From the NCBI RefSeq assembly GCF_003018255.1, contig NZ_CP027440.1: a stretch of DNA of 64,000 nt. One strand, 5' to 3'. This stretch comes from Escherichia coli (GTDB lineage Bacteria > Pseudomonadota > Gammaproteobacteria > Enterobacterales > Enterobacteriaceae). The notes beneath the pieces are model-generated. The model made no database searches and was not told the origin of the DNA. It saw nothing but the letters and a program-made list of their open reading frames with translations. The translations under genes were made by a program, and so were the position numbers. The stretch's first letter is position 1. Every line of letters begins with the position of its first letter. Shown here piece by piece: positions 34,372 through 34,628 of the stretch.

Positions 34372-34544
34372 TAAGGCTTGATAACTCCCCCAAAATAGTT
34401 CGAGTTGCAGAAAGGCGGCAAGCTCGAGAATTCCCGGGAGCTTACATCAGTAAGTGACCGGGATGAGCGAGCGAAGATAACGCATCTGCGGCGCGAAATA
34501 TGAAGGGGGAGAGCCCTTATAGACCAGGTAGTACACGTTTGGTT

Positions 34545-34571
34545 AGGGGGCCTGCATATGGCCCCCTTTTT
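34545..34571 (+). terminator. Intrinsic terminator/attenuator in the rpsB-tsf spacer (agggggcc-tgcatat-ggccccct + TTTTT)
   Basis: Perfect 8-bp GC stem plus U-tract read from sequence, about 60 bp before tsf start. Confidence 0.7.
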
Positions 34572-34628
34572 CACTTTTATATCTGTGCGGTTTAATGCCG
34601 GGCAGATCACATCTCCGAGGATTTTAGA

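What the first reader, a model, noticed from the sequence alone, without database searches (positions are those of the whole stretch)
34372..34628. Strong intrinsic terminator inside the rpsB-tsf spacer (attenuator architecture)
rpsB and tsf are separated by 257 nt containing a perfect GC-rich hairpin with a U-tract (34545-34571) about 60 nt before the tsf start. A terminator between two co-directional translation genes implies partial read-through, which would set the S2:EF-Ts ratio. The roughly 170 nt upstream of the hairpin has no assigned function here.
Basis: partly seen in the sequence, partly recalled or inferred. Interest (0 to 1): 0.3.

Follow-up and report, generated by a model that had tools for sequence, protein, structure and literature searches.

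The report
Known rpsB-tsf attenuator plus ERIC repeat
The hairpin between the ribosomal protein S2 gene and the elongation factor Ts gene is the long-known leaky terminator ("attenuator") of the E. coli rpsB-tsf operon, and the "unassigned" DNA upstream of it is a copy of the ERIC mobile repeat sitting inside an older conserved hairpin, so the finding is real but mostly ordinary.

Summary
rpsB ends at 34371 and tsf starts at 34629, leaving a 257-nt spacer. It holds a perfect 8-bp, 7-GC hairpin (34545-34567) followed by a T-run.

This is the E. coli rpsB-tsf attenuator. Monocistronic rpsB mRNA ends there, and about one third of transcripts read through into tsf from the single rpsB promoter.

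The 170 nt called unassigned are mostly a 127-bp ERIC/IRU repeat (about 34385-34511). The ERIC primers match it, and the family has a median of 10 places per E. coli genome. It replaces the inner part of an ancestral hairpin (P1) that starts at the rpsB stop codons. A second ancestral hairpin (P2) follows. Rfam's CssrA, a ~110-nt Shigella RNA, covers the right half of ERIC up to the terminator.

About a quarter of complete E. coli genomes lack the ERIC and have a 134-nt spacer. That short form matches the architecture in other Enterobacterales. Salmonella carries the ERIC at identical junctions.

A terminator-like hairpin between rpsB and tsf occurs in 39 of 70 diverse bacteria, against about 2.4 expected.

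One untested idea remains: a weak conserved antiterminator pairing (P1 3' strand with the terminator 5' arm) might couple read-through to rpsB translation.

The parts
33532..33618 (+). t44/tff RNA. This is the rpsB 5' leader, the S2 autoregulatory element. It is operon context, not part of the spacer.
   Evidence: Rfam RF00127, 83.5 bits against a gathering score of 44, E = 7e-19. Described as a cis-regulatory element controlling rpsB in PMC3632133.
33646..34371 (+). rpsB (30S ribosomal protein S2), 241 codons plus TAA.
   Evidence: ORF and translation. Annotated rpsB in identical E. coli records.
34369..34378 (+). Tandem stop codons TAATAA followed by GGCT. This is the 5' strand of the ancestral hairpin P1 ('segment 1').
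   Evidence: It pairs with 34511-34520 in the minimum-free-energy folds of the long and short alleles. UAAUAAGG/CCUUAUUA is conserved across Enterobacterales.
34385..34511 (+). ERIC/IRU repeat, a 127-nt imperfect palindrome with arms CTCCCCC...GGGGGAG. It is transcribed as part of the rpsB 3' UTR. The allele-specific block is 34378-34510.
   Evidence: ERIC1R matches 34426-34447(-) and ERIC2 matches 34448-34469(+), 19/22 each, with 0 matches in shuffles. The family is dispersed, with a median of 10 places per genome. It aligns with copies at yjbE-yjbF, hsdM-hsdR, mobH-ardC, ybhJ-ybhI and pgk-fbaA. 90.3% of cells are paired and 10 pairs show compensatory changes. The RNA folds at -66.3 kcal/mol, z = -8.5. 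It is absent from about 1330 of 5424 E. coli genomes.
34511..34520 (+). GAGCCCTTAT, the 3' strand of P1 ('segment 2'). It is nearly invariant from E. coli to Shewanella and is also complementary to the terminator 5' arm.
   Evidence: Alignments and folds.
34522..34544 (+). Hairpin P2 (GACCAGG-UAGUACACG-UUUGGUU), which directly abuts the terminator.
   Evidence: Folds. Present in E. coli, Salmonella, some Enterobacter and Klebsiella spp., Yersinia, Photorhabdus, Aeromonas and Shewanella. Absent from K. pneumoniae, Raoultella, E. roggenkampii and Superficieibacter.
34545..34571 (+). Intrinsic terminator, the rpsB-tsf attenuator. The stem-loop is 34545-34567 and the T-run is 34567-34571, followed by CACTTTT.
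   Evidence: Literature. Conserved homologous hairpin.
34457..34566 (+). Match to Rfam CssrA (a ~110-nt RNA seen in Shigella flexneri). It spans the right half of ERIC, the P1 3' strand, P2 and the terminator stem. Most likely it is the 3'-terminal fragment of terminated rpsB mRNA.
   Evidence: RF02798, 136.2 bits against a gathering score of 93, full length 1-111. The source paper gives a mapped 3' end and only an approximate 5' end (PMC3071730).
34581..34607 (+). Hairpin P4 (ATCTGTGCGG-TTTAA-TGCCGGGCAGAT), between the terminator and the tsf ribosome-binding site.
   Evidence: -15.0 kcal/mol, z = -3.9. RNAalifold consensus of 11 pairs on 10 Enterobacteriaceae, 4 pairs with compensatory changes.
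34617..34621 (+). Shine-Dalgarno GAGGA of tsf.
   Evidence: Read from the sequence. CGAGGA is invariant in 10 species.
34629..35480 (+). tsf (elongation factor Ts), 283 codons plus stop.
   Evidence: ORF. Exact protein named EF-Ts of E. coli / Enterobacteriaceae. Annotated tsf.

Best explanation
This is the rpsB-tsf operon of Escherichia coli, and the hairpin at 34545-34571 is its known internal rho-independent terminator, the 'attenuator'.

Transcription starts at the single promoter upstream of the rpsB leader. At the attenuator most RNA polymerases release a monocistronic rpsB mRNA. A minority, reported as about one third, read through and make the bicistronic rpsB-tsf mRNA. This sets the rpsB:tsf mRNA ratio.

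The terminator is the last of three structures in the rpsB 3' UTR:
- P1 begins at the tandem stop codons.
- P2 follows P1.
- T is the terminator.

In this window, as in about three quarters of E. coli genomes and in Salmonella, the inner part of P1 has been replaced by a 127-bp ERIC miniature transposable element. The ERIC is transcribed and folds into a long hairpin closed by the old P1 stem.

The ERIC is not needed for the attenuator, because ERIC-free E. coli and all other genera examined keep P1 and T.

The ~110-nt 'CssrA' RNA of Shigella corresponds to the right half of ERIC through the terminator. It is most simply a stable 3' fragment of terminated rpsB mRNA, cut near the ERIC apex.

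What is shown here: the sequence features, family memberships, polymorphism and conservation. What comes from the literature: termination and the read-through fraction. What is inferred: the origin of CssrA by processing.
For: - Geometry and hairpin.
- Locus identity: the spacer is 100% identical to many E. coli chromosomes and sits between annotated rpsB and tsf.
- Published function: attenuator with about one third read-through and a single promoter (PMC2834685); 'att' in the operon map, with S2 repression lowering the bicistronic mRNA (PMC10931766); step-wise termination of reads starting at the primary 5' end (PMC8848933; PMC11347139; SMRT-Cappable-seq).
- ERIC identity: primer matches, dispersed family, alignment with five other intergenic copies, and a palindrome maintained by compensatory changes.
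- Polymorphism and ancestral state.
- Salmonella orthologue.
- CssrA.
- Conservation of the terminator: the homologous GGGGC(C)...(G)GCCCC hairpin is present in all Enterobacterales, Pasteurellaceae, Aeromonas and Shewanella spacers. A terminator-like site is present in 39 of 70 rpsB-tsf spacers of at least 30 nt across Bacteria, against 2.4 expected from shuffles.
Against: - Termination and the one-third figure rest on secondary citations, because the primary paper (Aseev et al. 2008) is not in the held library.
- SMRT-Cappable-seq lists minor transcript contexts that begin with tsf (tsf-pyrH-frr), so some tsf transcripts may come from a minor internal start or from processing.
- The source table for CssrA lists its neighbours as map/rpsB rather than rpsB/tsf, and gives its 5' end only approximately. 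Its origin by processing is therefore inferred.
- The ERIC is conserved between E. coli and Salmonella with matched changes in both arms. This leaves open that it is more than a passenger.
Confidence: 0.9

Rival explanations
1. Translation-coupled attenuation, with a trp-leader-like topology. It would be an addition to the known attenuator, not a replacement.

Four segments are involved:
- Segment 1 is the stop codons plus the P1 5' strand (UAAUAAGGC).
- Segment 2 is GCCCUUAU.
- Segment 3 is the terminator 5' arm (UUAGGGGGCC).
- Segment 4 is the terminator 3' arm.

A ribosome terminating at the rpsB stop codon masks segment 1. That frees segment 2 to pair with segment 3 around P2. This delays the terminator hairpin and favours read-through into tsf.

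Without rpsB translation, for example under S2 autorepression, P1 forms and termination is maximal.
For: - When the terminator 3' arm is left out, the minimum-free-energy fold pairs segment 2 with segment 3 in many species. These are E. coli (both alleles), Salmonella, Enterobacter spp., Klebsiella spp., Raoultella, Superficieibacter, Yersinia, Photorhabdus, Rodentibacter, Haemophilus, a gammaproteobacterial MAG, Aeromonas, Shewanella and Aliivibrio.
- With 15 nt from the stop codon masked, adding segment 3 gains -4.3 to -14.5 kcal/mol (-8 or better in 13 of 18 spacers). Shuffles gain -2.4 to -7.9. The fraction of shuffles doing as well is 0.00-0.25 in all 18 spacers of this clade.
- Without the mask, the gain is no better than in shuffles in most spacers.
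- Both strands of P1 are conserved in sequence rather than covarying, as expected for segments with two partners.
- It would give a mechanism for the reported drop of bicistronic mRNA when S2 represses rpsB translation.
Against: - The terminator is about 4-9 kcal/mol more stable than the alternative.
- The computed refolding barrier from the alternative to the terminator is only 3.4-7.7 kcal/mol, which is easily crossed on the time scale of transcription.
- The segments are nearly invariant, so there is no covariation evidence.
- The species are related, so the 18 cases are not independent.
- The P1 and T stems resemble each other, so the cross-complementarity could be a by-product.
- The pattern is absent in Colwellia, Pseudoalteromonas, Vibrio gelatinilyticus, Rheinheimera and Acinetobacter.
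- In Rodentibacter, segment 1 lies 18 nt beyond the stop codon, out of reach of a terminating ribosome.
Confidence: 0.15
2. The ERIC copy is a functional, exapted part of the rpsB 3' UTR. Its long hairpin, or an RNase E/RNase III site in it, would tune rpsB mRNA decay or terminator efficiency. ERIC-plus and ERIC-minus E. coli would then differ in S2/EF-Ts expression.
For: - ERIC elements close to upstream stop codons change mRNA stability in Yersinia in an orientation-dependent way. This is De Gregorio et al. 2005, as summarised in PMC2229807, PMC3184786 and PMC10969869.
- This copy starts 14 nt after the stop codon.
- It is kept at identical junctions in E. coli and Salmonella with matched changes in both arms.
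- The transcribed strand folds better than the opposite strand, -66.3 against -51.0 kcal/mol.
- A discrete ~110-nt RNA starting near the ERIC apex was seen in Shigella.
Against: - About a quarter of complete E. coli genomes, including ST131 and APEC O18, and all other genera examined except Salmonella lack it. Their flanks and S2/EF-Ts proteins are otherwise identical. It is therefore dispensable.
- Palindrome maintenance is a general property of ERIC copies.
- No expression data were compared.
Confidence: 0.25
3. tsf is expressed mainly from its own promoter downstream of, or overlapping, the hairpin. The hairpin would then simply be the end of a monocistronic rpsB unit.
For: - Minor transcript contexts beginning with tsf are reported.
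- By eye there is a weak promoter-like pair, TTCACT (34570-34575) and TTTAAT (34591-34596), with a 15-nt spacer (read).
Against: - The promoter scan finds no sigma-70-like site in 33300-35700. The scan also misses the real rpsB promoter, so this is weak evidence.
- The literature states a single rpsB promoter with about one third read-through.
- Most long reads covering the operon start at the primary 5' end.
- S2 acting at the rpsB leader also controls Ts.
Confidence: 0.05
4. CssrA is an independent small-RNA gene with its own promoter inside the ERIC and a trans-acting function.
For: - The Rfam family exists and this window matches it above the gathering score.
- A Northern band of about 110 nt was reported.
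- The P2 - AU-rich linker - terminator - U-tail layout resembles Hfq-binding sRNA 3' modules. rpsB transcripts respond to Hfq.
Against: - No promoter-like site lies upstream of 34457.
- The 5' end in the source paper is only approximate.
- The 5' half of the RNA is a repeat element that is missing in many E. coli genomes.
- The RNA shares its 3' end with the abundant terminated rpsB mRNA, which makes a decay intermediate the simpler reading.
Confidence: 0.1

Closest known systems
E. coli K-12 rpsB-tsf attenuator (Aseev et al. 2008, RNA 14:1882, as cited in PMC2834685 and PMC10931766)
   Same: It is the same locus and the same sequence. It is an internal rho-independent terminator in front of tsf, with about one third read-through from one promoter.
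   Different: Nothing differs for the terminator itself. The published descriptions available here do not mention the ERIC element, the P1/P2 hairpins or the allele polymorphism.
[quoted passage not shown] 1991; Wilson and Sharp 2006), reviewed in PMC2229807
   Same: It is a 127-nt imperfect palindrome with a conserved core matched by the ERIC1R and ERIC2 primers. It is intergenic and transcribed, lies next to a highly expressed gene, has multiple copies per genome, and varies in presence between strains.
   Different: The terminal arms read CTCCCCC/GGGGGAG instead of the TATAC.../...GTATA ends of the other copies aligned here. No clean TA target-site duplication is visible. The filled site has 133 nt where the empty site has 10 (or 135 against 13, depending on how GAG is assigned), so it is a replacement rather than a simple insertion.
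CssrA (Rfam RF02798; Peng et al. 2011, PMC3071730)
   Same: Full-length match at 136 bits, ending at the terminator stem.
   Different: The source table places cssrA between map and rpsB, whereas the sequence lies between rpsB and tsf. It is probably a processing product, not a gene. Its 5' half is ERIC.
Internal attenuator between rplL and rpoB in the rplKAJL-rpoBC operon (general knowledge, not checked here)
   Same: It is a partial intrinsic terminator inside an operon of the translation/transcription machinery, which lowers the mRNA level of the distal genes.
   Different: Different genes and an unrelated sequence. That site also has an RNase III processing site.
trp-type leader attenuation (general knowledge)
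   Same: It has a four-segment topology with 1:2, 2:3 and 3:4 pairings. A ribosome on segment 1 would favour 2:3.
   Different: Here 'segment 1' is the end of a full-length gene, not a leader peptide. The 2:3 helix is much weaker than the terminator. No regulatory codons are involved, and function is not shown.
ERIC-dependent mRNA destabilisation in Yersinia (De Gregorio et al. 2005, via reviews)
   Same: An ERIC lies just downstream of a stop codon and is co-transcribed. A ribosome at the stop could unmask the distal arm.
   Different: Not tested for this copy. Here the element is followed by an attenuator rather than by the next gene directly.

Membership tests
Rho-independent (intrinsic) terminator | G+C-rich stem-loop | tested here: met
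   8 bp, 7 G-C, 7-nt loop, -18.3 kcal/mol for the segment.
Rho-independent (intrinsic) terminator | U-tract immediately 3' of the stem | tested here: met
   UUUUU then CACUUUU (34567-34578). The tract is interrupted after 5 U, which is consistent with leakiness.
Rho-independent (intrinsic) terminator | RNA 3' ends at the U-tract in vivo | not testable with these tools
   Literature only: the attenuator in front of tsf, step-wise termination in long-read data, and the CssrA 3' end.
E. coli rpsB-tsf attenuator | Located between rpsB and tsf of E. coli, on the same strand | tested here: met
   The spacer is 100% identical to E. coli chromosomes, and the flanking CDS are annotated rpsB and tsf.
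E. coli rpsB-tsf attenuator | Partial read-through (about one third) from the single rpsB promoter | not testable with these tools
   Stated in PMC2834685. No promoter-like site was found in the spacer.
ERIC / IRU | Imperfect palindrome of about 127 bp | tested here: met
   34385-34511 is 127 nt. The hairpin folds at -66.3 kcal/mol with z = -8.5.
ERIC / IRU | Conserved central inverted repeat (ERIC1R/ERIC2 primer sites, back to back) | tested here: met
   19/22 matches at 34426-34447(-) and 19/22 at 34448-34469(+), with none in shuffles. The primer sequences are printed in 233 papers.
ERIC / IRU | Dispersed, multi-copy, intergenic | tested here: met
   Median of 10 places per genome (range 2-16) in 5425 genomes. 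Five other copies were fetched and all lie between genes.
ERIC / IRU | Terminal inverted repeats with TA ends and target-site duplication | tested here: inconclusive
   Terminal arms are present and complementary, but they differ from the other copies. No TA duplication is visible, and 10-13 nt of the empty site are missing from the filled site.
CssrA (RF02798) | Score above the Rfam gathering threshold | tested here: met
   136.2 bits against 93, model positions 1-111 of 111.
CssrA (RF02798) | A separately transcribed small RNA | tested here: inconclusive
   No promoter-like site was found. The published 5' end is approximate. Expression is not testable here.
Translation-sensing (trp-like) attenuator | Alternative antiterminator helix that excludes the terminator | tested here: inconclusive
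   The helix is present in nascent-RNA folds of about 18 species and is better than shuffles when the stop-codon region is masked. It is about 4-9 kcal/mol weaker than the terminator, with a refolding barrier of 3.4-7.7 kcal/mol.
Translation-sensing (trp-like) attenuator | Read-through depends on ribosome position on segment 1 | not testable with these tools
   It needs in vivo or coupled in vitro assays.

The most novel reading that the evidence does not exclude
The rpsB 3' UTR of Enterobacterales and their relatives may be a translation-sensing attenuator.

The tandem stop codons of rpsB are themselves one strand of hairpin P1. A terminating ribosome would open P1. The freed GCCCUUAU segment would then pair with the 5' arm of the terminator and lower termination.

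If so, transcription of tsf would be coupled to translation of rpsB, and therefore to S2 autoregulation. The ERIC insertion in most E. coli and in Salmonella, which lengthens P1 by 123 nt, would be a natural perturbation of this switch.
Probability: 0.15. Interest if true: 0.5.

Novelty: already known. Interest (0 to 1): 0.17.

Why it matters
The attenuator itself is textbook-level knowledge for this operon, so confirming it adds nothing new. Three things are modestly useful.

1. The 'unassigned' sequence is explained. It is an ERIC repeat inside an ancestral hairpin, and the Rfam sRNA family CssrA is largely that repeat plus the attenuator. This argues for caution about CssrA as a gene.

2. 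E. coli carries a natural long/short allele pair in the 3' UTR of an essential, very highly expressed ribosomal protein gene. This is a ready-made test of whether a MITE changes mRNA decay or termination.

3. A terminator between rpsB and tsf is widespread in Bacteria. In the enterobacterial clade it comes with a conserved alternative pairing. If that pairing is functional, it would give a structural mechanism for the reported coupling of tsf mRNA levels to rpsB translation.

Tried and rejected
- **Promoter scan of 33300-35700.** It found no sites. It also misses the true rpsB promoter, so it is only weak evidence against a tsf promoter.
- **RNAalifold on a MAFFT alignment of 12 spacers.** The terminator was mis-registered and the result was uninformative, except for the outer stem of P1. 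I used per-sequence folds instead.
- **Primary papers.** Aseev et al. 2008 and De Gregorio et al. 2005 are not in the held library. I relied on papers that cite them.
- **Supplements of the SMRT-Cappable-seq paper.** I searched them for a tsf start site and found no occurrences.
- **Yersinia review for the ERIC mechanism.** Nothing relevant.
- **Literature search for an rpsB 3'-UTR-derived sRNA.** Nothing beyond t44 and CssrA.
- **Small ORFs in the spacer.** The candidates are 34405-34503, 34500-34595 and 34558-34656. I rejected them as genes. They have no Shine-Dalgarno sequence, the first lies wholly within the ERIC and the second starts in it, so both are missing from the short allele and from other genera, and the third runs into tsf out of frame.
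- **A divergent short allele (CP031215, 92.7% identity).** Its differences are homopolymer-length changes, probably assembly errors.
- **A strict antiterminator.** I rejected it because the terminator is more stable and the refolding barrier is low. Only a modulating role remains possible.
- **Recent import of the short allele from a divergent donor.** This is not supported. The flanks of the long and short alleles differ at 1 of 1190 and 3 of 1318 positions.

Full report
**Observation**

The window carries map (minus strand), then rpsB (33646-34371), tsf (34629-35480) and pyrH on the plus strand. The rpsB-tsf spacer is 34372-34628, 257 nt, as stated.

The terminator scan finds AGGGGGCC-TGCATAT-GGCCCCCT at 34545-34567, followed by TTTTCACTTT. 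It has 8 pairs, 7 of them G-C. It is the best of six terminator-like sites in 33300-35700, where shuffles give 2.1 +/- 1.5. The segment folds at -18.3 kcal/mol. The whole spacer folds far better than shuffles (-108.1 kcal/mol, z = -6.9), so it holds more structure than the terminator alone.

**Identity of the locus and what is already known**

The spacer is 100% identical to many complete E. coli chromosomes. It lies between genes annotated rpsB and tsf.

The literature describes this site:
[quoted passage not shown] 2008).
- A 2024 review shows an attenuator in the operon map. It states that S2 repression at the rpsB leader lowers the bicistronic mRNA and hence EF-Ts (PMC10931766).
- Long-read transcript studies report that reads from the primary 5' end are terminated step-wise (PMC8848933; PMC11347139; SMRT-Cappable-seq).

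**The 'unassigned' 170 nt**

Rfam gives three hits:
- t44 (RF00127) at 33532-33618, which is the rpsB leader.
- CssrA (RF02798) at 34457-34566, 136 bits against a gathering score of 93.
- A weak match to Vibrio AS5 over 34384-34507.

The core of the region, GAGAATTCCCGGGAGCTTACAT|CAGTAAGTGACCGGGATGAGCG, matches the two standard ERIC-PCR primers back to back, 19/22 each. The primer sequences are printed in 233 papers.

The 133-nt block 34378-34510 is a dispersed repeat. It has 49,034 places in 5,425 genomes, with a median of 10 per genome.

Other copies were fetched from genomes that lack the rpsB-tsf copy. All lie between genes: yjbE-yjbF, hsdM-hsdR, mobH-ardC, ybhJ-ybhI and pgk-fbaA. They align over the whole element.

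I projected the hairpin of the window copy onto the six copies. 90.3% of cells are paired, against 32-44% when partners are slid. Ten pairs show changes on both sides, a value reached by 1 of 500 shuffles.

The palindrome CTCCCCC...GGGGGAG spans 34385-34511, which is 127 nt, the canonical ERIC length (PMC2229807). As RNA it folds at -66.3 kcal/mol on the transcribed strand and -51.0 on the other strand.

**Polymorphism and ancestral architecture**

Of 5,424 E. coli genomes with the spacer, 4,094 have the long form. About 1,330 match only the last 118 nt. A query across the short junction confirms two classes, contiguous or split by 123 nt.

The short form has a 134-nt spacer. It occurs in strains such as ST131 and APEC O18. 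It reads TAAGGC-ACGCTCGTAC-GAGCCC where the long form has TAAGGC-TTGATAA-ERIC-GAGCCC.

The short form has the same layout as other taxa: Enterobacter sp. Ag1 and Bisph1, Klebsiella sp. BIGb0407, an unnamed Enterobacteriaceae (L092), Yersinia and Photorhabdus. With variations, it also matches Pasteurellaceae, Aeromonas, Shewanella and a gammaproteobacterial MAG. The layout is:
- P1, a hairpin whose 5' strand is the tandem stop codons (UAAUAAGG.../...CCUUAUUA).
- P2, a second hairpin (AACCAGG.../...UUGGUU).
- The terminator.
- P4, a further hairpin.
- The tsf Shine-Dalgarno sequence.

K. pneumoniae, Raoultella, E. roggenkampii and Superficieibacter have a shorter P1 and no P2. The ERIC thus replaces the inner stem-loop of P1 and is closed by the old outer stem.

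Salmonella enterica has the same 257-nt spacer with the ERIC at identical junctions. Its ERIC is about 9% diverged, similar to tsf itself (77/852). It includes a matched one-base deletion in each terminal arm.

This leaves a puzzle. The ERIC looks older than the Escherichia-Salmonella split. Yet the E. coli short allele retains the pre-ERIC hairpin sequence, and its flanks are almost identical to those of the long allele (1 of 1190 and 3 of 1318 differences). I could not resolve this.

**CssrA**

The Rfam family derives from a ~110-nt Northern band in Shigella flexneri. Its 3' end was mapped and its 5' end was only approximated (PMC3071730). That table lists the neighbours as map/rpsB, which does not fit where the sequence lies.

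The match runs from just past the ERIC apex to the last base of the terminator stem. No promoter-like site precedes it. Half of it is a repeat that many E. coli genomes lack. The simplest reading is a stable 3' fragment of the abundant terminated rpsB mRNA. This is an inference.

**How widespread is the architecture?**

In 80 loci recovered with EF-Ts from one genome per species, rpsB lies directly upstream in essentially all. Of 70 spacers of at least 30 nt, 39 contain a terminator-like hairpin plus T-run, where shuffles predict 2.4 in total.

The hairpin is clearly homologous, (CA)GGGGC(C)...(G)GCCCC(UG), across Enterobacterales, Pasteurellaceae, Aeromonas, Shewanella, Vibrionaceae and Rheinheimera. 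Unrelated hairpins occupy the same place in Colwellia, Pseudoalteromonas, Acinetobacter, Desulfuromonadales, Bacillaceae and some Clostridia.

**A possible extra layer**

The P1 3' strand (GAGCCCUUAU, 34511-34520) is complementary to two partners: the stop-codon strand of P1, and the terminator 5' arm (UUAGGGGG, 34543-34550).

When the terminator 3' arm is omitted, mimicking the nascent RNA, the minimum-free-energy structure pairs these two segments around P2. This holds in both E. coli alleles, in Salmonella and in about 15 other species.

With the first 15 nt from the stop codon made unavailable, as under a terminating ribosome, adding the terminator 5' arm gains -4.3 to -14.5 kcal/mol, and -8 or better in 13 of the 18 spacers. 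Shuffles gain -2.4 to -7.9. The fraction of shuffles doing as well is 0.00-0.25 in all 18 spacers of this clade. Without the mask, the gain is no better than in shuffles in most.

This is the topology of a trp-type attenuator, with the end of rpsB in the role of the leader peptide. It would fit the reported loss of bicistronic mRNA when S2 blocks rpsB translation.

The case against it is substantial:
- The terminator is about 4-9 kcal/mol more stable.
- The computed refolding barrier is only 3.4-7.7 kcal/mol.
- The segments hardly vary, so there is no covariation.
- The species are related.
- The similarity of the P1 and T stems could create the complementarity as a by-product.
- The pattern is missing in several other gammaproteobacterial groups.

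I rate it at 0.15.

**Verdict**

The upstream sequence is an ERIC repeat within conserved 3'-UTR hairpins. Interest is low. The allele polymorphism and the alternative pairing are the only parts that might repay an experiment.

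Noticed in passing
window 33532-33618 (+): Full-length match to Rfam t44 (RF00127, 83.5 bits). This is the rpsB 5' leader that S2 uses for autoregulation. By offset from the published K-12 start site (189712), the operon's transcription start would fall near window 33484, just after TGTGGTATAAAG.
   Followed up: partly
window 34581-34607 (+): Hairpin P4 lies between the attenuator and the tsf Shine-Dalgarno sequence (-15.0 kcal/mol, z = -3.9). It is conserved in 10 Enterobacteriaceae, with 4 of 11 pairs showing compensatory changes. Its function is unknown. It would be at the 5' side of the tsf ribosome-binding site only on read-through transcripts.
   Followed up: partly
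window 34378-34510, compared with L001:1191-1200, L089 and L095: The ERIC is orthologous between E. coli and Salmonella, with identical junctions. Yet about 25% of E. coli genomes carry an allele with the ancestral, pre-ERIC hairpin and nearly identical flanks. Neither simple insertion nor deletion explains this.
   Followed up: partly
window 34384-34507 (+): Weak Rfam match (24.6 bits, E = 0.029, far below gathering) of the ERIC to 'Vibrio RNA AS5'. This suggests that family may itself be an ERIC-like repeat.
   Followed up: no
window 34457-34566; PMC3071730 Table 1: The paper that defined cssrA lists its neighbours as map/rpsB, but the Rfam model matches the rpsB-tsf spacer. Either the table or the family's coordinates are inconsistent.
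   Followed up: partly
loci L002-L081 (rpsB-tsf spacers of 80 species): A terminator-like hairpin between rpsB and tsf is found in 39 of 70 spacers across Proteobacteria, Bacillaceae and Clostridia, against 2.4 expected. An internal attenuator in this gene pair may therefore be very widespread, with unrelated hairpins in different phyla.
   Followed up: partly
window 35488-35510 and 35565-35583: A G+C-rich hairpin with T-runs on both sides follows tsf (AGCCGCC-TGAG-GGCGGCT). It is the published operon terminator. A second terminator-like hairpin lies just before pyrH. Published long reads show some read-through into pyrH-frr.
   Followed up: no
E. coli genomes lacking the rpsB-tsf ERIC (e.g. 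hits H53-H61): Genomes with the short allele have far fewer places matching this ERIC copy (2-4) than genomes with the long allele (8-14). ERIC load therefore seems to differ by lineage.
   Followed up: no
L084 (E. coli strain C7, mobH-ardC spacer) and plasmid hits H58, H62: ERIC copies also occur inside an integrative/conjugative element and on plasmids (38 plasmid places). This is a possible route for spread between species.
   Followed up: no
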